A DNA stretch of 64,000 bases, from NCBI RefSeq assembly GCF_030384885.1, contig NZ_CP128613.1; one strand, 5' to 3'. Below are positions 8,938-16,430 of this stretch, in pieces. How positions within the stretch are numbered: the first letter of the stretch is position 1; each line of letters opens with the position of its first letter. Below the pieces are notes generated by a model, which had not been told where the DNA came from, ran no database searches, and saw only the letters and a list, made by a program, of their open reading frames with translations. This DNA comes from Escherichia coli. Its GTDB lineage: Bacteria; Pseudomonadota; Gammaproteobacteria; Enterobacterales; Enterobacteriaceae. The position numbers were made by a program, and so were the translations under genes.

Positions 8938-10362
8938 TTAATGTTTAACCATGACGTGGCGGACGACGGTGTAATCCTCCAACCCATAAAGTGACATATC
9001 CTTGCCGTAACCAGAAAGTTTCTGTCCACCGTGCGGCATTTCACTTACCAGCATGAAATGGGTATTGACCCAGGTACAACCATATTGCAGCCGTGCGCTG
9101 ACACGATGCGCCCTGCCCACATCTTTAGTCCATACCGAAGATGCAAGTCCGTACTGGCTGTCATTCGCCCAGTTCACCACCTGTTCTTCATTGTCAAAGG
9201 CCGTCACGCTCACCACCGGACCAAATACCTCTTTTTGCACGATGGCATCGTCCTGTAACGCGCCAGCCAGCAGCGTAGGCGCGTAGTAATAACCATTACC
9301 CTTGCGCTTTTCACCACCGGTGATCACTTTGATGTGCCCTGTCTCTTTCGCCTCTTCTACCGCCTTGCTGACACGTTCGAGATGCGCCAGCGAGCTTAAA
9401 GGTCCAAGCTCCGTAGACTCGTCATCCGGTGCACCAGATTTTAACGTTGCCACAGCAGCACCAAGTTTTTCCACCAGCGTATCGTAAATACCTTTTTGCG
9501 CGTAGATCCGACAAGCCGCAGTACAATCCTGTCCGGCATTGTAATAGCCAAAAGTACGTACACCTTCGACCACCGATTCAATATCCGCATCATCAAAAAC
9601 TATCACTGGCGCTTTGCCACCAAGTTCCATATGAGTACGCTTTATGGACGGCGCGGTATGGCTGATGATGTGTTCCCCAGTGGCGATAGAGCCCGTCAGC
9701 GACACCATCCGCACTTTGGGATGTCCGGTCAGCGGATCGCCCACTGTTTTGCCTCTGCCAAACAGCACATTAATCACGCCAGCCGGGAAGATATCTTTCG
9801 CCAGTTCAGCCAGCTTCAACGCTGTCAGCGGCGTAATTTCTGATGGTTTAAGCACTACGCAGTTCCCTGCCGCCAGCGCCGGAGCCAGTTTCCACGCGGC
9901 CATCATCAGCGGATAATTCCACGGTGCGATAGAAGCCACGACCCCCAACGGATCCCGACGGATCATTGAAGTATGACCTTCAAGGTATTCGCCGGCCGCC
10001 AGACCATTGAGGCAGCGCGCCGCCCCGGCGAAAAAGCGAAAGACATCGACAATCGCCGGAATTTCATCATTGAACGCACTATGCAGCGGTTTGCCACAAT
10101 TACGGGACTCCAGTTCGGCAAAAACCTGACCATTTTCTTCAATAACATCGGCCAGTTTCAGCAGGCATTCCGCACGCGCTTTCGGCGTGGTTTGCCCCCA
10201 TTCGGCAAATGCTGCATCTGCCGCGCGAACAGCAGCATCCACCTGCTCTGCGGATGCCTCGGCAATCTCCAGTAAAACGTCCCCCGTTGCCGGATTATAG
10301 ACAGGCTGTTTTTCCCCTTCGCCGCTAACCAGTTCTCCGTTAATCAGTAACTTATGTTGCAT
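8938..10362 (-). CDS. patD: Gamma-aminobutyraldehyde dehydrogenase PatD (YdcW)
   Basis: 474-aa aldehyde dehydrogenase with catalytic Cys/Glu context; N-terminus [27 protein letters not shown] matches PatD. Confidence 0.9.
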
Positions 10363-10383
10363 AGCATATTCCTGTATCAGTGG

Positions 10384-11178
10384 TTATTGACCATTGTCGC
10401 CTTCGCGGGTTAGCCACCAGGCCCCCAGGATCGGCAAGGTTGTTACCAACATAACCAGCAGTGCCACCACGTTGGTTACCGGTACATCACGTGGTCGCCC
10501 AAGCTGATTGAGCAACCACAACGGTAACGTTCGTTCATGACCTGCCGTAAAAGTCGTCACGATGATTTCATCGAACGACAAAGCAAACGCCAGCATTCCT
10601 CCTGCCAGTAGCGCCGAACTGAGATTCGGCAACACCACGTAGCGGAAGGTTTGCCAGCCATTGGCCCCAAGATCCATTGACGCCTCAACCAGACTCCAGG
10701 AGGTACGGCGAAAACGGGCGATGACATTGTTAAACACCACCACTACGCAAAAAGTCGCATGACCGACCACGATGGTGAAAAATCCCGGCTCCAGATTGAT
10801 GGTTTTAAAAGCAGTTAATAGCGCCAGACCAGTGACAATGCCCGGCAGCGCAATGGGCAGCAGCAATAGCAATGAAATGGCGCTTTTACCGAAAAAGTCC
10901 CGACGCCACAGCGCAGTAGCGGCCAGTGTCCCTAATACCAGCGCAATTAATGTCGCCAGCGCCGCCACTTTAAGTGACAGTGTCACGGCTTCAAGAATAT
11001 CACTACGCTGTGCTGCCACGCTAAACCAGCGCAGCGTCAGGCCTTGCGGTGGAAAACTAAACGCCGCATCTTCAGTGTTAAACGCATAGGCGGCGATAAT
11101 CAGGATGGGAAAATGTAGGAAAACCACGCCGCCCCAGGCCGCCAGTTTGAGGAGAAACGGTGCGCGTTCAGAGTGCAT
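10384..11178 (-). CDS. ydcV: ABC transporter permease YdcV (polyamine-type)
   Basis: 264-aa polytopic membrane ORF with a permease EAA-like loop; operon position after ydcU. Confidence 0.85.
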
Positions 11179-12109
11179 CGAACGCTCCCAGACGTTTCAC
11201 GAACGCCAGGTACAGTGCGATGAGAACAATCGGCACCAGGGTGAATGCCGCCGCCATCGGCATATTGCCAATCGCCCCCTGCTGGGAATAAACCATATTG
11301 CCGATAAAATATCCTGGAGGGCCAACCAGCTGCGGAACGATAAAATCGCCCAGTGTGAGTGAAAAGGTAAAGATAGAGCCAGCGGCAATACCCGGGATTG
11401 CCAGCGGCAGCACCACATAGCGAAAGGTTTGCCGTGGACGCGCGCCAAGATCAGCCGACGCCTGCAACAGTGACGGCGGCAAACGCTCAAGCGCCGCCTG
11501 CACGGGCAGGATCATGAACGGCAGCCAGATATAAAGAAACACGAGAAAGCGTCCCAGCCCGGAAGTTGACAACGTGTTACCGCCCACCGCGGGTAATGTA
11601 AGGAACGCTGTCAGCAGTGGTTCCAGCCCCAGATGTTGTAAAAACCACTGCGCCACGCCATCTTTTGCCAGCAATAATGTCCAGGCATAAGCTTTAACAA
11701 TGTAGCTTGCCCACATTGGCAGCATCACCGCAATATAGAAGAACGCTTTCATTTTCCCGCTGGTATAGCGCGCCATATACCACGCCATCGGAAAAGCCAG
11801 AATGGCGCTGGCGATAGTGACAGCCACAGCCATGGTTAGCGTGCGGAGGATGATGTCGTAATTCGCCGGATTAAACAGCGCGCGGATATTCGCCAGCGTC
11901 AGTTCTGGCGTTACCGACATGGTGAAATCGTCAAAGGTATAAAAGCCCTGCCATAACAACGTCAGGAGTGAACCAAAATAGACAATGCCAAACCACATCA
12001 GCGGACCAAGCAGCAGCAAAAACAGCCCCAGTCCCGGTTTCCGCCAGAAGAAACCTGACACCTTACCCAATCCTGGGCGCGCAGGTGATTGCAATACGTT
12101 CATCGCCAT
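11168..12109 (-). CDS. ydcU: ABC transporter permease YdcU
   Basis: 313-aa polytopic membrane ORF; overlaps ydcV by 11 nt and abuts ydcT. Confidence 0.85.
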
Positions 12110-13123
12110 TCACCTCTCCTCAACCAGCGGCACCATCACATCGCGCGACCAGGAAACCATCACCTGTTGTCCGGGCGTGAGCGTGGCAGGCAGTTCTTCG
12201 CCTGTCATATTGGCCTGACTTACCAGCAGTTTTTCACCGCCATTCAGTCTCAGTTCAAAACGGGTCGCCGCGCCCTGATACTGCACCGCCTGGATCGTGC
12301 CATTAACTTGCACTTCGCCGGGGGTGTTGAGGCGGATATGTTCCGGTCTCAGGGCAAAACTGCCTATCATGCCGCAAAGATTATCGGCCATTAGCGGCTC
12401 AAAAACGTTGGATGTCCCGACGAATCCAGCAACAAACGGCGTGCGCGGGCGCATATAGAGGTCACGCGGTGAATCAACCTGCTCAATGCGACCGTTATTG
12501 AATACCGCAACACGATCGGACATCGATAATGCCTCGCCCTGATCGTGGGTGACGAAAATAAAGGTGATGCCAAGAGACTGTTGCAGCTTTTTCAGCTCAA
12601 GTTGCATCTGCTCACGCAGCTTGAGATCCAGCGCGCCGAGCGGTTCATCCAACAGCAATACGCGCGGCTCATTCACCAATGCTCTGGCGATAGCAACCCG
12701 CTGGCGCTGACCACCAGAAAGTTGTGACGGTTTACGTTGCTGTACAAACCCCAACGCCACTTTCTCCAGCGCCTCTTGCGCCATTACGTGTCGCTGTTTT
12801 TTATCCACCCCTTTGACCATCAGCCCATAGGCCACGTTGTCAAGAATCGACATATGCGGAAATAGCGCGTAGTCTTGGAAGACGGTATTCACGTCCCGCT
12901 CCCACGGCGGCAGATTGCTGGCGGGTTTACCAAAGATAGATATAGTCCCGCCGGAAAGCTGTTCGAATCCAGCAATCAGGCGCAGGCAGGTGGTTTTGCC
13001 GGAGCCAGACGGCCCCAGCATTGAGAAAAACTCACCATCTTTTATCGCAATACTGACACCATCTACCGCGCGCACATCACCATACAGTCGCGATACGTTG
13101 TCAAACTCCACTGCGTACGTCAT
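12110..13123 (-). CDS. ydcT: ABC transporter ATP-binding protein YdcT (PotA-like)
   Basis: Walker A GPSGSGKTT, ABC signature LSGGQRQRVAIARAL and Walker B LLLDEP in a 337-aa ORF. Confidence 0.9.
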   Translation of the reverse strand: MTYAVEFDNVSRLYGDVRAVDGVSIAIKDGEFFSMLGPSGSGKTTCLRLIAGFEQLSGGTISIFGKPASNLPPWERDVNTVFQDYALFPHMSILDNVAYGLMVKGVDKKQRHVMAQEALEKVALGFVQQRKPSQLSGGQRQRVAIARALVNEPRVLLLDEPLGALDLKLREQMQLELKKLQQSLGITFIFVTHDQGEALSMSDRVAVFNNGRIEQVDSPRDLYMRPRTPFVAGFVGTSNVFEPLMADNLCGMIGSFALRPEHIRLNTPGEVQVNGTIQAVQYQGAATRFELRLNGGEKLLVSQANMTGEELPATLTPGQQVMVSWSRDVMVPLVEER

Positions 13124-13140
13124 AAAACACCCCAGCGAAG

Positions 13141-14286
13141 TTAGCGGCCGCCCATAATGGCAATATAATCCTGCGTCCAGCGACTGTAGGGAACAAACTT
13201 GCCCCCTTCTGCTATAGGCGTTTTCCAGAAGGCGATTTTATCGAAATAGTTAAAACCGTTTGTTTCACAACCTTTTTCGCCTAATAACGGACTGGCTTTA
13301 CACCCTTCCGGCACTACCGGTAACGAGCCAAACCAGGCCGCCACATCGCCCTGCACTTTTGGCGTTAATGACCAGTTCATCCATTTGTAGGCGCAAACCG
13401 GATGTTTCGCTTCGCTATGTAGCATGGTGGTGTCAGCCCAACCGGTAACGCCCTCCTTCGGGAAAACGGTAGCGACAGGCTGGCCTTCGGCTTTCAGGGC
13501 GTTGGCCTGATAGGGCCATGCACTGGAAGCAACCACACCCTCGTTTTTGAAATCGCTCATTTGCACGGTAGTGTCATGCCAGTAGCGATGGATCAAACTA
13601 TGTTGATCGCGCAGCACTTTCAGCACCGCCTGGTACTGTTCTTCGGTGAGTTGATACGGATCGCTGATGCCCAACTGCGGCTGAGTGGCTTTAACGAACA
13701 ACGCAGCATCCGCAATATAAATAGGGCCATCATAAGCCTGAACGCGGCCTTTATTGCTCTTACCGTCCGGCAGATTCTGCGCAACAAAAACCACTTGCCA
13801 GCTATCCGGCGGCGTCGGGAAGGTTTTCGTGTTGTACATCAGCAGGTTCGGCCCCCATTGGTAAGGAGTGCCGTAAACTTTGCCGCCAACGTTAAACCAG
13901 TCGCCTTTAACCACGCGCGGATCGAGCGCTTTCCAGTTGGGAATCAATGCGGTATTAATCGGCTGCACGCGTTTACCCATAATCAGGCGCAGCGAGGCAT
14001 CGCCGGACGCCGTAACCAGATCGTAACCCCCTTTGGTCATCAGACTGACCATTTCATCGGACGTCGCGGCGGTTTTTACATTCACCGCGCAACCTGTCTC
14101 TTTTTCGAATTGCGTTACCCAGTCGTATTGTTTATCGGTTTGTCCGCGTTCGATGTATCCCGGCCAGGCGATAATATCCAGTCGCCCTTCCGGTTTATCT
14201 AAATTGGTAGGCGGTTCGGCGGCGTGAGCGGTCATTATTATCATGGTGAGCGCACACAGGCTGCTGCGGGCAAATGTCTTGCTCAT
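13141..14286 (-). CDS. ydcS: Periplasmic polyamine-binding protein YdcS
   Basis: 381-aa ORF with signal peptide (MSKTFARSSLCALTMIIMTAHA) and PotD/PotF-like fold; first gene of the ydcSTUV-patD operon. Confidence 0.88.
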   Translation of the reverse strand: MSKTFARSSLCALTMIIMTAHAAEPPTNLDKPEGRLDIIAWPGYIERGQTDKQYDWVTQFEKETGCAVNVKTAATSDEMVSLMTKGGYDLVTASGDASLRLIMGKRVQPINTALIPNWKALDPRVVKGDWFNVGGKVYGTPYQWGPNLLMYNTKTFPTPPDSWQVVFVAQNLPDGKSNKGRVQAYDGPIYIADAALFVKATQPQLGISDPYQLTEEQYQAVLKVLRDQHSLIHRYWHDTTVQMSDFKNEGVVASSAWPYQANALKAEGQPVATVFPKEGVTGWADTTMLHSEAKHPVCAYKWMNWSLTPKVQGDVAAWFGSLPVVPEGCKASPLLGEKGCETNGFNYFDKIAFWKTPIAEGGKFVPYSRWTQDYIAIMGGR

Positions 14287-14530
14287 AAGGTCTTACTCCT
14301 GTCGTAATTAATTGTTCAGCCGCCGTGCCGTAAAAATATCTCCTTGTTTAACCATAGACGGCGGCTTGCAGGCACACCTTCGCCCCTGAGAAAATTTAAT
14401 CAGGTTGTGAGCTACCGCGCATTATGCCGTCTGTGAGATTATCTTCTGGAGTATAGACAAGGGGTTAGGAAATATGACTGCTATTCGAAATTCATATTAC
14501 CCAACCTAAGAGGAATTAAATTAAACGCTA

Positions 14531-15937
14531 TTACAGCCGTTCTTGAATAAGTTTGCCTAATTGTTTAACCGCCTGTTCTTCGCGCTCGCCCCACTGCCAT
14601 GCAGTATTAAAACGAAAAAAACGTGACCAGTTTGCACCGGTAGAAAACATTTTACCCGGCGCAATACTGATATGATGCGTCAGTGCTGCCAGGCTTAATT
14701 CGCCCGCATCTAACGGCGCGGGGAGTTCCAGCCAGAGAAAATAACCGCTGTCATTATGATGAATTTTCACTTCCGCAGGCAGATAACGCAGCAGTGCCTG
14801 CCAGGCACGTTGTTTACGTTCCGCAAGCTGGCGACGCAGGCGACGAAGATGGGCGTCGTATCGGCGCGTGGAAAGATAATCCACCAGCGCAAGCTGCATC
14901 GGTGAACTGGTCGAAAGCGTACTCATCAATTGCAAGCGTTGAATTTTACGTGCATGTTTTCCGGCGGCGACCCAACCAATACGAAAACCTGGCACCAGAC
15001 ATTTCGAAAACGAAGAGCAATGCAAAACGCCATCGTGGCGATCCCACGCTTTCGCAGGCAGCGGTTTTTCCCGTCCAAAATAAAGTTCGCTGTACACGTC
15101 ATCTTCAATCAGCGTTACGTTGTACTGATTGAGCAACGCTACCAGTTGTTCTTTTTTCTGCTGCGTTAAGGTAAAACCGAGTGGATTCTGGCTATTAGTC
15201 ATCAGCCAGCACGCTTTCACCGGATACTCCTGCAACGCCAGTTCCAGCGCCTGAAGATCGATCCCTTCGTTAACGTCCGTCGCCACCGATAACGCCTTCA
15301 GCCGTAACCGCTCCAGCGCCTGCAACGCGCCGTAGAAACAAGGATTCTCTACTATCACCCAATCGCCTGGTTCCGTTACCGCTTGTAAACTGAGGTTTAA
15401 TGCCTCTAACGCCCCGGCGGTAATGACAATTTCATCAGGAGAAATAGTGATGCCCTGTAAGGCATAGCGACGAGCAATAGCCTGACGCAGTTCTGCGTTT
15501 CCTGGCGGTAAGTTTTCAATCACGCTCATCGCCGTGGCGGTTTTGCTTACCTGCGCCAGCGAGCGGTTTAGTTGTTGGAGGGGGAAAAGTCGCGGGTCGG
15601 GAAAGGCCGAGGCAAACGGAACTACCGACGGATCGCGACTGGCCTGCAACATATCAAAAATATAGGTGTTGATATCGACTGCTTCATCTCGAGTGACTGG
15701 AATGACTGGCGCTTTCGGCATTTTTATTGCCTGTGGCGCAACGTAATAACCCGACTGCGGTCGCGCGATAATATGTCCCTGACTTTCGAGCAACTGATAG
15801 GCATGGCTGACGGTCATAAAGCTCATGCCAGAAAGCGCCACCTGGTCACGCAACGAAGGCAAACGATCTCCGGGTTGCCAGATCCCCGACGCAATCTGCT
15901 CGCGTAATTGTTCTGCAAGCTGCTGGTATTTTTTCAT
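14531..15937 (-). CDS. ydcR: MocR-family regulator YdcR (GntR HTH fused to aminotransferase-like PLP domain)
   Basis: 468-aa ORF with an N-terminal GntR-type HTH and a class-I aminotransferase-like C-terminal domain. Confidence 0.85.
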   Translation of the reverse strand: MKKYQQLAEQLREQIASGIWQPGDRLPSLRDQVALSGMSFMTVSHAYQLLESQGHIIARPQSGYYVAPQAIKMPKAPVIPVTRDEAVDINTYIFDMLQASRDPSVVPFASAFPDPRLFPLQQLNRSLAQVSKTATAMSVIENLPPGNAELRQAIARRYALQGITISPDEIVITAGALEALNLSLQAVTEPGDWVIVENPCFYGALQALERLRLKALSVATDVNEGIDLQALELALQEYPVKACWLMTNSQNPLGFTLTQQKKEQLVALLNQYNVTLIEDDVYSELYFGREKPLPAKAWDRHDGVLHCSSFSKCLVPGFRIGWVAAGKHARKIQRLQLMSTLSTSSPMQLALVDYLSTRRYDAHLRRLRRQLAERKQRAWQALLRYLPAEVKIHHNDSGYFLWLELPAPLDAGELSLAALTHHISIAPGKMFSTGANWSRFFRFNTAWQWGEREEQAVKQLGKLIQERL

Positions 15938-16015
15938 TATCGAATCGTTATTATGTGCAGGTGATTCGGCAGTCTATATCAGTTGTTAAAAATGACAACT
16001 TTTCATTAACTGTTA

Positions 16016-16255
<240 letters not shown>

Positions 16256-16430
16256 TTACCTCCGTGTGTAATGTGCTCGAAAATAGCACTAAATCGCCGC
16301 AACGGCAGAATGCAATGCAAAATCAGGAAGGAAGATTCCAGAATTTCTTTGCGCTAATTTGCAAAACTGAATAATAACCTCAAGAAACGATCGGCATCAT
16401 AGCGGCAAAAGGTCAGAAAAAGGTGGCGAG

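What the first reader, a model, noticed from the sequence alone, without database searches (positions are those of the whole stretch)
8938..14286. ydcSTUV-patD: polyamine-type ABC importer co-transcribed with gamma-aminobutyraldehyde dehydrogenase
Five co-directional, overlapping or abutting genes couple a PotD-like binding protein, an ATPase and two permeases to PatD, implying uptake and oxidation of a putrescine-derived aminoaldehyde or related amine. The MocR-type regulator gene ydcR lies directly upstream in the same orientation, and the Vat-like acetyltransferase island sits directly downstream of the operon.
Basis: established knowledge. Interest (0 to 1): 0.3.

Follow-up and report, generated by a model that had tools for sequence, protein, structure and literature searches.

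The report
E. coli ydcSTUV-patD amine-uptake operon
This is the well-known, nearly universal E. coli operon that joins a polyamine-type ABC importer to the enzyme gamma-aminobutyraldehyde dehydrogenase. It is ordinary as a feature, but what it transports has never been measured, and the regulator gene next to it does not appear to control it.

Summary
Window 8938-14286 (minus strand) holds intact ydcS, ydcT, ydcU, ydcV and patD of E. coli strain 2013C-4282, packed with gaps of 17, 0, -11 and 21 nt. The block is present in 5400 of 5426 complete E. coli genomes and conserved as a unit in 80 Enterobacteriaceae species.

YdcS belongs to the PotD/PotF fold family and PatD is a true aminobutyraldehyde dehydrogenase. 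However, YdcS keeps only one of the four acidic polyamine-clamping residues, and the papers read cite only a database for transport; I found no transport assay.

In Serratia, Lonsdalea, Rahnella and Pseudomonas the same block is preceded by a LysR regulator and a second PatD paralog. It often sits beside a Tat-exported spermidine dehydrogenase. This hints that the cargo could be an aminoaldehyde or a short diamine rather than putrescine.

ydcR is not the operon's regulator on present evidence. Its conserved operator and its published ChIP-exo peak lie upstream of ydcR itself, and nothing similar lies upstream of ydcS.

The acetyltransferase sits on a 1346-bp low-GC insert carried by 21% of E. 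coli genomes.

Verdict: already known, low to moderate interest.

The parts
13141..14286 (-). ydcS: periplasmic substrate-binding protein (381 aa) with a Sec signal peptide ending AHA|AEPP, PotD/PotF fold family
   Evidence: It matches Pfam SBP_bac_8/1/6 and the NCBIfam YdcS equivalog at 812 bits against a cutoff of 725. PDB 6NLP is this protein, at E=3e-253. The next structural neighbours are SpuE, PotF and PotD at 18-24% identity. The N-terminus was read.
12110..13123 (-). ydcT: ABC ATPase (337 aa) with a C-terminal TOBE_2 domain
   Evidence: It matches Pfam ABC_tran plus TOBE_2. It carries Walker A GPSGSGKT at residue 37, the LSGGQ signature at 135, Walker B VLLLDE at 155 and an H-loop at 189. 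PotA is the best NCBIfam match but falls below its cutoff, 356.7 bits against 482.
11168..12109 (-). ydcU: permease (313 aa). Its start codon abuts the ydcT stop codon.
   Evidence: It matches Pfam BPD_transp_1. PotB and PotH are the best NCBIfam matches, both far below cutoff.
10384..11178 (-). ydcV: permease (264 aa). It overlaps the end of ydcU by 11 nt.
   Evidence: It matches Pfam BPD_transp_1. It has an EAA loop, EASMDLGA, at residue 165. PotC and PotI are the best NCBIfam matches, both below cutoff.
8938..10362 (-). patD (ydcW/prr): NAD-dependent gamma-aminobutyraldehyde dehydrogenase (474 aa), starting 21 nt after ydcV
   Evidence: It scores 1035 bits against a cutoff of 909 for TIGR03374 ABALDH. 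PDB 1WNB/1WND match at E=0. The catalytic motifs ELGGK (Glu246) and GQDCTA (Cys280) are present.
14287..14530 (-). Intergenic region between ydcR and ydcS, holding the operon's control region. The conserved blocks within it are listed as separate parts below.
   Evidence: Phylogenetic footprinting was done on 22 and then 39 Enterobacteriaceae species. The region has no Rfam match and no conserved RNA structure.
14481..14498 (-). Conserved block AATATGAATTTCGAATAG (ATA-N9-AAT). Candidate Nac/LysR-type activator site; this assignment is inferred.
   Evidence: The block is conserved across genera. The literature lists ydcSTUVW as Nac-controlled. The assignment to Nac rests on resemblance to the ATA-N9-TAT consensus, recalled from memory, with one mismatch.
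14450..14456 (-). CTATACT: a sigma-S-type -10 element with C at -13, nearly invariant across species
   Evidence: It is conserved as CTATA(C/A)T in 39 species. Published data show RpoS dependence of ydcS, ydcT and ydcU. No transcription-start data could be obtained.
14406..14421 (-). TGCGC-N6-TCACA: a CRP-like site. Both half-sites are invariant while the spacer varies.
   Evidence: The invariant columns are T36, G37, G39 and T47-A51 of alignment A3. ydcS and ydcU appear in a published table of cAMP-dependent genes. The assignment is inferred.
14351..14358 (-). TCTATGGT (TCTAYNNT across species): a second -10-like element and possible proximal promoter
   Evidence: It is conserved in A3. Its function is inferred. 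I could not determine which of the two -10 elements is used.
14326..14343 (-). GGAGATATTTTTACGGCA: a nearly invariant block of unknown function containing an invariant GGA. It is followed by a small GC hairpin.
   Evidence: Conservation is shown. RNAalifold finds only a 4-bp hairpin with one compensatory change. An alternative stem has no covariation. The fold of the E. coli leader is no better than shuffled sequence, z = -0.47.
8885..8936 (-). Hairpin with a 23-bp interrupted stem immediately after the patD stop codon, at the edge of the insert. It is followed by AGUUUUGAG and is the likely operon terminator in this strain.
   Evidence: Folding gives -25.7 kcal/mol with z = -5.76, and 0 of 200 shuffles fold as well.
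7591..8936 (-). 1346-bp low-GC accessory insert between the patD stop codon and the ancestral terminator, flanked by ATTAAG direct repeats
   Evidence: Alignment with K-12 defines the insert and one search gives the coordinates. GC is 27-37% against 50-58% in the operon. At least 80% of the segment is present in 1142 of 5426 E. coli genomes. It is absent from K-12.
7895..8704 (-). XAT-class hexapeptide acetyltransferase (269 aa), in the same orientation as the operon
   Evidence: It matches Pfam Hexapep. Its NCBIfam scores are all below cutoff: Vat 126.7 against 300, CatB 104 against 350, phn_thr-fam 131.9 against 201.65. RefSeq names it a CatB-related O-acetyltransferase.
7518..7552 (.). Ancestral patD/yncL hairpin terminator (13-bp arms at 7540-7552 and 7518-7530, 14 pairs in the predicted fold), now about 1.4 kb from patD
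   Evidence: The alignment with K-12 is, the fold at -23.2 kcal/mol is, and the coordinates are.
14531..15937 (-). ydcR: MocR-type (GntR plus aminotransferase fold) regulator. It is a neighbour and is not shown to belong to the operon.
   Evidence: It matches Pfam GntR plus Aminotran_1_2. It falls below all NCBIfam MocR equivalog cutoffs.
15976..16016 (.). Candidate YdcR operator ATAACAGTT-N23-AACTGATAT, upstream of ydcR. It is context for the finding, not part of the operon.
   Evidence: It is the only occurrence in the 64-kb window. It is present upstream of ydcR in 71 of 78 Enterobacteriaceae loci and upstream of ydcS in 0 of 78. It coincides with the published K-12 YdcR ChIP-exo peak at 1509941-1509970.

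Best explanation
ydcSTUV-patD is one transcription unit, read from the minus strand. It starts from a promoter region in 14287-14530 and ends at the hairpin just after patD.

It encodes a binding-protein-dependent type I ABC importer of the polyamine (PotD/PotF) family. YdcS is exported to the periplasm and captures a small amine. YdcU and YdcV form the channel. The YdcT dimer hydrolyses ATP. PatD, made from the same mRNA, oxidises an omega-aminoaldehyde (4-aminobutanal) to GABA with NAD+. The imported compound is therefore either already such an aldehyde or becomes one after a deamination encoded elsewhere (PatA in E. coli).

Expression is a starvation and stationary-phase response (sigma-S, cAMP-CRP, Nac), not a response governed by the adjacent ydcR.

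Shown here: gene content, intactness, family membership, conserved linkage, and the absence of a YdcR site.
Taken from the literature: RpoS, cAMP and Nac dependence; the PatD enzymology implied by its family and solved structure.
Inferred: the direction of transport, the ligand, and which promoter elements are used.
For: - Gene order, spacing and motifs support a single operon encoding an importer.
- The block is in the core genome: 5400 of 5426 E. coli genomes.
- The five-gene block is intact in every one of 80 Enterobacteriaceae loci that is long enough. It is also intact in Serratia, Lonsdalea, Rahnella and five Pseudomonas genomes.
- YdcS is closest in sequence and fold to the polyamine receptors SpuE, PotF, PotD and VcPotD1. 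It keeps the aromatic box W41, Y44, W257, W283 and the anchoring Asp285.
- PatD scores above the ABALDH equivalog cutoff and has its catalytic Glu and Cys.
- Papers name the operon and observe it as one co-expression cluster. They report RpoS dependence, a cAMP effect and Nac control.
- Matching conserved promoter blocks lie upstream of ydcS.
Against: - No paper I could read reports a transport or binding assay. The one paper that lists YdcSTUV as a putrescine importer cites a transporter database for it.
- YdcS lacks three of PotF's four acidic ligand contacts: D39 becomes Gly43, E185 becomes Tyr190, and D247 falls in a deletion. It also lacks three of PotD's four.
- YdcT, YdcU and YdcV all score below the Pot equivalog cutoffs.
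- Co-transcription of patD was not measured here. An internal promoter inside ydcV cannot be excluded.
- No transcription start site data were obtained.
Confidence: 0.8

Rival explanations
1. YdcSTUV is a conventional putrescine (or spermidine) importer, as databases and reviews label it. Putrescine is then transaminated by the unlinked PatA and oxidised by PatD.
For: YdcS belongs to the PotF/SpuD/PotD family by sequence and fold, and PotA, PotB and PotC are the best family matches for the other subunits. Reviews and expression papers use this label. Nac and sigma-S control fits nitrogen scavenging.
Against: - The citation trail in the one paper I could check ends at a database rather than an assay.
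- Only one of the four acidic residues that clamp the two ammonium groups in PotF and PotD is kept. The replacements Pro42, Gly43, Asp96 and Tyr190 are invariant or nearly so from E. coli to Pseudomonas, so this is a different, conserved pocket.
- No aminotransferase accompanies the block in about 90 loci inspected, whereas an aminoaldehyde dehydrogenase always does, and two do outside Enterobacteriaceae.
- From memory, not checked here: growth on putrescine depends on PuuP even when ydcSTUV is intact.
Confidence: 0.35
2. YdcSTUV imports omega-aminoaldehydes or their cyclic imines (4-aminobutanal/delta-1-pyrroline, 3-aminopropanal) that are produced outside the cytoplasm by amine-oxidising enzymes. 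PatD and its paralog oxidise them directly, with no aminotransferase step.
For: - The transporter is always linked to PatD, and outside Enterobacteriaceae to a second PatD paralog about 62% identical to it. An aminotransferase or oxidase is never found inside the block.
- In Serratia and P. nitroreducens the block is followed by spermidine dehydrogenase SpdH. Both SpdH homologues I picked independently also sit next to the block.
- All four SpdH proteins start with a twin-arginine motif, TRRDFLNG. The Serratia copy is followed by a Sec-exported cytochrome c. SpdH releases 4-aminobutanal and 3-aminopropanal. On the reading that SpdH is exported, these aldehydes would arise in the periplasm, while the NAD-dependent dehydrogenases are presumably cytoplasmic.
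- The YdcS pocket keeps one amine anchor and the aromatic box but loses the distal acidic clamp.
Against: - I know of no binding protein shown to bind an aminoaldehyde.
- Delta-1-pyrroline may cross membranes unaided.
- From memory, not tested here: E. coli itself has no SpdH.
- SpdH is next to the block in only 2 of 6 loci found from the YdcS side.
- The other SpdH product, 1,3-diaminopropane, is an equally good candidate cargo. The conserved Asp96 could be its second anchor.
- The mapping of pocket residues rests on alignments at 25% identity, not on inspection of the 6NLP coordinates.
Confidence: 0.3
3. ydcR, the MocR-type gene directly upstream, senses the substrate and regulates ydcSTUV-patD through the 14287-14530 region.
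For: ydcR and ydcS are adjacent and co-oriented in every one of the 80 Enterobacteriaceae loci long enough to show it. MocR-type regulators often control amine or GABA genes next to them.
Against: - The ChIP-exo list for YdcR in K-12 has sites at ylaC, at its own promoter and elsewhere, but none between ydcR and ydcS.
- The conserved box ATAACAGTT-N23-AACTGATAT is upstream of ydcR in 71 of 78 loci and upstream of ydcS in 0 of 78.
- The comparative-genomics regulon for YdcR is ylaC and cydAB-like genes. In 62 of 80 loci ydcR is divergent from exactly such an oxidase operon.
- The ydcSTUV-patD block occurs with a LysR regulator and without ydcR in Serratia, Rahnella, Lonsdalea and Pseudomonas.
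- Caveat: the ChIP-exo was done in glucose minimal medium only.
Confidence: 0.07
4. YdcS is mainly something other than a transport receptor: a periplasmic short-chain poly-3-hydroxybutyrate synthase, or, together with YdcV, the inner-membrane route for double-stranded DNA in natural transformation.
For: The K-12 RefSeq product name includes 'polyhydroxybutyrate synthase'. A review reports 6.7-fold lower natural transformation in ydcS mutants and 9.5-fold lower in ydcV mutants, and cites the PHB synthase claim.
Against: YdcS has only binding-protein domains and no PHA synthase or alpha/beta-hydrolase match at E<=0.001. Its crystal structure was deposited as a periplasmic binding protein. A complete importer with a strictly conserved dehydrogenase partner is not explained by either role. 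The transformation effects are modest and ydcT matters little, so they may be indirect.
Confidence: 0.05

Closest known systems
PotFGHI (E. coli putrescine ABC importer) and SpuDEFGH (P. aeruginosa)
   Same: Both have the same four-component architecture: a periplasmic binding protein, a TOBE-containing ATPase and two permeases. PotF, SpuD and SpuE are the nearest solved structures to YdcS apart from YdcS itself. The aromatic box and PotF Asp278 (YdcS Asp285) are kept.
   Different: Identity is only 18-24%. PotF D39, E185 and D247 are replaced or deleted, and a new invariant Asp96 appears. NCBIfam scores fall far below the PotF/G/H/I cutoffs. The gene order differs, and an aldehyde dehydrogenase sits in the operon.
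PotABCD (E. coli spermidine-preferential importer)
   Same: PotA, PotB and PotC are the best-scoring NCBIfam models for YdcT, YdcU and YdcV. The binding proteins share a fold.
   Different: All scores are below the equivalog cutoffs (for example 356.7 against 482 for PotA). PotD residues E36, D168 and E171 are not conserved in YdcS.
PatA-PatD aminotransferase pathway of putrescine catabolism (E. coli)
   Same: PatD in this window is that enzyme. Reviews describe the pathway.
   Different: patA is not in or near the operon. The operon links PatD to a transporter instead of to the enzyme that makes its substrate.
Spermidine dehydrogenase (SpdH) route of Pseudomonas and Serratia
   Same: In four genomes the ydcSTUV-patD block, with a PatD paralog, lies beside SpdH. 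SpdH yields 4-aminobutanal and 3-aminopropanal, which are PatD-type substrates.
   Different: The E. coli window has no SpdH, no second dehydrogenase and no LysR regulator.
MocR/GabR-type regulators with adjacent target operons (GabR-gabTD, EnuR, TauR)
   Same: YdcR has the GntR plus aminotransferase-fold architecture. It binds a widely spaced repeat at its own promoter.
   Different: Its site is not in front of the adjacent ydcS. Its conserved partner is the divergent cydAB-like operon, which Escherichia has lost.
Atu4243 (Agrobacterium GABA receptor, PotF-like fold)
   Same: It belongs to the same fold family as YdcS (ranks 34-36). It shows that this family can evolve to bind a mono-amine carrying a non-cationic distal group.
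   Different: Identity to YdcS is 17-18%. I did not test for shared specificity residues.

Membership tests
Binding-protein-dependent type I ABC importer, polyamine/opine/phosphonate group (PotABCD/PotFGHI-like) | Exported substrate-binding protein with the class II periplasmic binding-protein fold | tested here: met
   YdcS matches SBP_bac_8/1/6. Its N-terminus is signal-peptide-like and ends AHA|AEPP. The crystal structure 6NLP starts at residue 21-23. The nearest folds are polyamine receptors.
Binding-protein-dependent type I ABC importer, polyamine/opine/phosphonate group (PotABCD/PotFGHI-like) | ATPase with Walker A, Walker B and the LSGGQ signature, plus a TOBE regulatory domain | tested here: met
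   Searches show all of these in YdcT.
Binding-protein-dependent type I ABC importer, polyamine/opine/phosphonate group (PotABCD/PotFGHI-like) | Two BPD_transp_1 permeases with an EAA coupling loop | tested here: met
   Both YdcU and YdcV match Pfam BPD_transp_1. A simple regex finds the EAA motif in YdcV only.
Binding-protein-dependent type I ABC importer, polyamine/opine/phosphonate group (PotABCD/PotFGHI-like) | Equivalog-level identity to PotA-D or PotF-I, meaning the same function by NCBIfam cutoffs | tested here: not met
   YdcS scores 62 bits against 636 for PotF and 46 against 582 for PotD. YdcT scores 356.7 against 482 for PotA and 264.9 against 613 for PotG. YdcU and YdcV are also far below cutoff. 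YdcS has its own equivalog model, named only as 'putative'.
Binding-protein-dependent type I ABC importer, polyamine/opine/phosphonate group (PotABCD/PotFGHI-like) | Polyamine-binding pocket: an aromatic box plus acidic residues that clamp both ammonium groups | tested here: inconclusive
   The aromatic box (W41, Y44, W257, W283), Ser94 and Asp285 are kept. PotF D39, E185 and D247, and PotD E36, D168 and E171, are not. The mapping of E185 to Tyr190 agrees across three alignments. The other central-region mappings (PotF D247, PotD E171) depend on the alignment used. I did not inspect the 6NLP coordinates.
Binding-protein-dependent type I ABC importer, polyamine/opine/phosphonate group (PotABCD/PotFGHI-like) | Demonstrated polyamine uptake or binding | not testable with these tools
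   No assay appears in the papers I could read. The one paper that calls it a putrescine importer cites a database. Key J Bacteriol papers are not held in the library.
Aminobutyraldehyde dehydrogenase (PatD/YdcW, TIGR03374) | Score above the curated equivalog cutoff, and near-identity to the solved enzyme | tested here: met
   The score is 1035.2 bits against a cutoff of 909.3. PDB 1WNB/1WND match at E=0 over residues 1-474. The protein differs from K-12 at 7 residues.
Aminobutyraldehyde dehydrogenase (PatD/YdcW, TIGR03374) | Catalytic Glu and Cys of the aldehyde dehydrogenase superfamily | tested here: met
   ELGGK is present at residue 246 and GQDCTA at residue 277, which places Cys at 280.
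Operon (single transcription unit) | Co-directional genes with junctions too short for separate promoter and terminator pairs | tested here: met
   The junction gaps are 17, 0, -11 and 21 nt. Terminator-like hits across 7600-16400 are not enriched over shuffles, 15 against 10.4 +/- 3.1.
Operon (single transcription unit) | A transcript spanning ydcS to patD | not testable with these tools
   Only indirect support is available. Papers name the operon and find it as one expression cluster. The gene order is conserved in more than 85 genomes.
MocR-type regulator controlling the adjacent operon | GntR wHTH domain plus a fold-type-I aminotransferase domain | tested here: met
   YdcR matches Pfam GntR and Aminotran_1_2.
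MocR-type regulator controlling the adjacent operon | An operator for the regulator in the promoter region of the adjacent operon | tested here: not met
   No YdcR-type box lies in 14287-14530 or in the 330 bp upstream of ydcS in any of 78 loci, whereas 71 of 78 have one upstream of ydcR. No ChIP-exo site falls in that interval in K-12.
Vat / CatB xenobiotic acetyltransferases | Left-handed beta-helix hexapeptide repeats | tested here: met
   The protein matches Pfam Hexapep at E=6.7e-13.
Vat / CatB xenobiotic acetyltransferases | Score above the curated family cutoff for Vat or CatB | tested here: not met
   It scores 126.7 bits against 300 for Vat and 104.1 against 350 for CatB. Its best match is a phosphonate-cluster hexapeptide transferase at 131.9 against 201.65.
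PHA/PHB synthase (claimed second activity of YdcS) | PhaC or alpha/beta-hydrolase catalytic domain | tested here: not met
   Only binding-protein families match YdcS at E<=0.001. The fold is that of a binding protein.

The most novel reading that the evidence does not exclude
YdcSTUV is not a polyamine importer. It is the first ABC importer for omega-aminoaldehydes or cyclic imines (4-aminobutanal/delta-1-pyrroline, 3-aminopropanal) formed outside the cytoplasm by amine-oxidising enzymes such as Tat-exported spermidine dehydrogenase. PatD and its paralog act as the immediate cytoplasmic sink. On this reading, E. coli keeps a reduced version of the module to scavenge aminoaldehydes made by the host or by other microbes during starvation.
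Probability: 0.25. Interest if true: 0.6.

Novelty: already known. Interest (0 to 1): 0.3.

Why it matters
As a sequence feature this changes nothing. It is a textbook-annotated core operon of E. coli.

Its value lies in three clarifications.
1. The label 'putrescine importer' rests on homology only. The binding pocket differs from PotF and PotD in a way that is conserved from E. coli to Pseudomonas.
2. The wider genomic context offers a concrete, cheaply testable idea for a transporter that has stayed uncharacterised for more than 20 years. That context is a second PatD paralog, a LysR regulator and a Tat-exported spermidine dehydrogenase.
3. ydcR should not be assumed to regulate this operon. 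Its operator lies on its other side, facing an oxidase operon that Escherichia has lost.

If the aminoaldehyde-uptake idea held, it would add a new substrate class to binding-protein-dependent transport. It would also add a new link in polyamine turnover in the gut.

Tried and rejected
- **Riboswitch or structured leader upstream of ydcS.** Rfam gave no credible match; the single hit, a miRNA model at E=0.21, simply reflects the hairpin after patD. RNAalifold on 39 species found only a 4-bp hairpin. An alternative 'anti-terminator' stem showed no covariation and was no better than shuffles. The E. coli leader fold scored z = -0.47. The conserved blocks are therefore more likely protein-binding sites.
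- **YdcR site in the ydcS promoter.** No inverted repeat of either tested form was found there.
- **Transcription start sites.** The Cappable-seq supplements contained no coordinates for this region. I could not decide which -10 element is used.
- **Primary papers on putrescine transport and catabolism.** The J Bacteriol 2009 and 2012 papers are not held in the library.
- **Contexts of remote YdcS homologues (35-59% identity).** They lie on short metagenome contigs and were uninformative. One had the transporter genes without a dehydrogenase.
- **Antisense ORFs inside the operon (up to 213 aa).** They have no Pfam match and are treated as chance ORFs.
- **Simple promoter scan.** It found fewer sigma-70-like sites than shuffled sequence and none in the ydcS upstream region. 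This is consistent with a non-canonical, sigma-S or activator-dependent promoter.
- **Sigma-54 promoter in the CGGCAC-N5-CCGC block.** I considered this by eye. I did not adopt it because the -12 GC is not kept in Escherichia.

Full report
**What is in the window**

The window is 100% identical to the chromosome of E. coli strain 2013C-4282 (NZ_CP027579.1). The reported interval holds five ORFs on the minus strand: ydcS 13141-14286, ydcT 12110-13123, ydcU 11168-12109, ydcV 10384-11178 and patD 8938-10362. RefSeq annotates them identically.

The junctions are a 17-nt gap, an abutting stop and start, an 11-nt overlap and a 21-nt gap. ydcR (14531-15937) lies 244 bp upstream in the same orientation. 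A hexapeptide acetyltransferase (7895-8704) lies 233 bp downstream.

At least 80% of the segment is present in 5400 of 5426 complete E. coli genomes. All five proteins have the K-12 length and differ from K-12 at 4-12 residues. They retain the ABC motifs (Walker A and B, LSGGQ, H-loop), an EAA loop in YdcV, and the catalytic Glu246 and Cys280 motifs of PatD. Antisense ORFs inside the operon match nothing in Pfam.

**What the proteins are**

- YdcS is a periplasmic binding protein (Pfam SBP_bac_8/1/6). It has its own NCBIfam equivalog, named only 'putative'.
- The YdcS crystal structure is deposited as 6NLP. Its title names no ligand.
- Its nearest relatives by sequence and by fold are the polyamine receptors SpuE, SpuD, PotF, PotD and VcPotD1, at 18-24% identity. 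The GABA receptor Atu4243 comes next.
- YdcT, YdcU and YdcV match PotA/PotG, PotB/PotH and PotC/PotI best, but all fall well below the curated cutoffs.
- PatD exceeds the aminobutyraldehyde dehydrogenase equivalog cutoff (1035 against 909 bits). It is essentially identical to the solved YdcW enzyme, PDB 1WNB.

So 'polyamine-type ABC importer plus gamma-aminobutyraldehyde dehydrogenase' is correct at the level of family.

**The substrate is not established**

The one paper I could read that lists YdcSTUV among putrescine importers cites a transporter database for it. Others call it 'putative' or an ABC transporter of unknown specificity.

I aligned YdcS with PotF and PotD, alongside the HMMER alignment to PotF.
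- Kept in YdcS: the aromatic box (W41, Y44, W257, W283), Ser94 and the anchoring Asp285 (PotF D278, PotD D257).
- Replaced: PotF D39 becomes Gly43 and E185 becomes Tyr190.
- Deleted: PotF D247 falls in a deletion.
- Not conserved: PotD E36, D168 and E171.
- New: an Asp96 appears where PotF has Ser and PotD has Tyr.

These YdcS residues are invariant or nearly so across 13 orthologues from E. coli to Pseudomonas. The pocket is therefore conserved but differs from the di-cation clamp of PotF and PotD. The mapping rests on alignments at 25% identity, not on the 6NLP coordinates. It is firm for the N-terminal motif, for E185 and for D278, and less firm elsewhere.

**Genomic context beyond E. coli**

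A scan of one genome per species found relatives in 528 species, and the 80 best loci were kept. In all of them that are long enough, ydcS-ydcT-ydcU-ydcV-patD is intact and co-linear.

Outside Enterobacteriaceae I inspected six loci reached from YdcS: Serratia, Lonsdalea, Rahnella and three Pseudomonas. In each, the block is preceded by a LysR-type regulator and a second aldehyde dehydrogenase. Where I checked it (one Serratia and three Pseudomonas loci), that enzyme is a PatD paralog, about 62% identical to PatD and within the same NCBIfam subfamily. No aminotransferase or oxidase lies inside the block in any locus.

In Serratia and P. nitroreducens the gene after patD encodes a protein of about 620-636 aa. 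The Serratia copy matches the solved P. aeruginosa spermidine dehydrogenase SpdH at E=1e-245. Two further SpdH homologues, chosen from the SpdH side (P. solani and Pseudomonas sp. UW4), also lie next to the same block.

All four SpdH proteins begin with a twin-arginine motif, TRRDFLNG. The Serratia copy is followed by a Sec-signal cytochrome c with three CxxCH motifs. According to a review, SpdH cleaves spermidine to 1,3-diaminopropane plus 4-aminobutanal, and spermine to spermidine plus 3-aminopropanal.

My inference is as follows. In these bacteria the aldehydes arise in the periplasm, while the NAD-dependent dehydrogenases are cytoplasmic. The importer between them therefore plausibly carries an SpdH product, either an aminoaldehyde (or its cyclic imine) or 1,3-diaminopropane. 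This fits the altered pocket but is not proof. From memory, E. coli has no SpdH, and I could not check that here. From the YdcS side, only 2 of 6 loci carry SpdH.

**Regulation and ydcR**

The adjacency of ydcR and ydcS holds in every one of the 80 Enterobacteriaceae loci long enough to show it. In 62 of them ydcR is also divergent from a cydAB-like cytochrome bd-type oxidase operon. That operon is missing in Escherichia, where hicAB occupies the position in K-12 and only a hicB remnant remains in this strain.

A published comparative-genomics reconstruction assigns YdcR the regulon ylaC and cydAB-like genes, not ydcSTUV. Published ChIP-exo in K-12 lists YdcR sites at ylaC, at its own promoter (1509941-1509970) and at several other places. 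It lists none between ydcR and ydcS.

Under that promoter peak I found ATAACAGTT-N23-AACTGATAT (window 15976-16016).
- It is the only such box in the 64-kb window.
- It is present upstream of ydcR in 71 of 78 loci.
- It is present in the 330 bp upstream of ydcS in 0 of 78 loci.

One caveat applies: the ChIP-exo was done only in glucose minimal medium.

**The ydcS upstream region**

This region shows strong phylogenetic footprints.
- An ATA-N9-AAT block at 14481-14498.
- A nearly invariant CTATACT at 14450-14456, with the C at -13 that is typical of sigma-S promoters.
- An invariant TGCG...TCACA pair with a variable 6-nt spacer at 14406-14421, which is CRP-like.
- A second TCTAYNNT element at 14351-14358.
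- An almost invariant GGAGATATTTTTACGGCA at 14326-14343.
- The Shine-Dalgarno sequence ACAGGAG.

These fit published dependence on RpoS, a cAMP effect and Nac control. The assignments are inferences, because I could not obtain start-site data. Tests for a structured RNA were negative.

**The downstream 'island'**

Compared with K-12, this strain carries a 1346-bp insert (7591-8936) that begins directly after the patD stop codon. It is flanked by ATTAAG repeats. Its GC content is 27-37%, against 50-58% in the operon.

The insert separates patD from the ancestral hairpin terminator, now at 7518-7552. It supplies its own strong hairpin at 8885-8936 (-25.7 kcal/mol, z = -5.8). At least 80% of the segment is present in 1142 of 5426 E. 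coli genomes, and it is absent from the other Enterobacteriaceae loci.

Its 269-aa product has hexapeptide repeats but scores below the Vat, CatB and phosphonate-cluster transferase cutoffs. 'XAT-class acetyltransferase of unknown substrate' is the safe name. The gene runs in the same direction as the operon, so read-through from patD is possible. I did not test this.

**Other published claims**

YdcS has been claimed as a periplasmic poly-3-hydroxybutyrate synthase. YdcS and YdcV have been claimed as a route for double-stranded DNA uptake. Neither claim is supported by domain content or fold. Neither explains the conserved five-gene block.

**Verdict**

This is a known operon, correctly recognised and correctly placed, so its novelty is 'already known'. 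The family-level interpretation stands and the ydcR link does not. The unanswered question is the cargo. My best estimate gives about 0.35 to a conventional diamine importer and about 0.3 to aminoaldehyde or pyrroline uptake. The rest goes to other small amines such as 1,3-diaminopropane. Interest is 0.3: a specialist would not be surprised by the feature, but the context found here makes an old open question directly testable.

Noticed in passing
window 15976-16016: A conserved, widely spaced inverted repeat, ATAACAGTT-N23-AACTGATAT, lies just upstream of ydcR. It contains an inner perfect repeat, AGTTGT-N8-ACAACT. It coincides with the published YdcR ChIP-exo peak in K-12 and is present in 71 of 78 Enterobacteriaceae loci. 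It is probably the YdcR operator, shared with the divergent cydAB-like operon where that operon exists.
   Followed up: yes
window 16016-16252: Only a 237-bp 3' remnant of the antitoxin gene hicB remains between ydcR and yncJ. hicA and the 5' part of hicB, both intact in K-12, are missing, so the interval is about 445 bp shorter.
   Followed up: partly
window 7591-8936: A 1346-bp low-GC insert carries a 269-aa XAT-class acetyltransferase. It sits exactly between the patD stop codon and the ancestral terminator, is flanked by ATTAAG repeats, and brings its own hairpin. It is found in about 21% of E. coli genomes, and copies in other lineages are only about 91% identical.
   Followed up: partly
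L006 8464-18616; L093 8385-17801; L097 1894-11863; L098 870-11863: In Serratia and three Pseudomonas genomes the ydcSTUV-patD block, together with a PatD paralog and a LysR regulator, is clustered with Tat-signal spermidine dehydrogenase SpdH. Serratia also has an exported multihaem cytochrome c there. Two loci have an amino-acid permease downstream of patD (L096, L098), and three have a SnoaL-like protein (L093, L096, L097).
   Followed up: partly
window 14326-14343: The block GGAGATATTTTTACGGCA is almost invariant in 39 species but has no assigned function. It contains an invariant GGA, and a second GGA lies in the Shine-Dalgarno sequence about 40 nt downstream. That arrangement resembles CsrA targets, and a CsrA study saw this operon as a responsive expression cluster. 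I did not test this.
   Followed up: no
L007 5436-7992 and most loci L011-L087: A cydAB-like oxidase operon (Cyt_bd_oxida_I, Cyt_bd_oxida_II and DUF2474) lies divergent from ydcR in 62 of 80 Enterobacteriaceae species and is absent in Escherichia. YdcR in E. coli may therefore be a regulator that has lost its main target.
   Followed up: partly
window 8500-14700: The next-best E. coli genome is only 98.3% identical over this 6.2-kb core segment. Most genomes fall at 95-99% (3780 records) or 90-95% (1634 records), so this strain carries a comparatively rare allele of the region.
   Followed up: no
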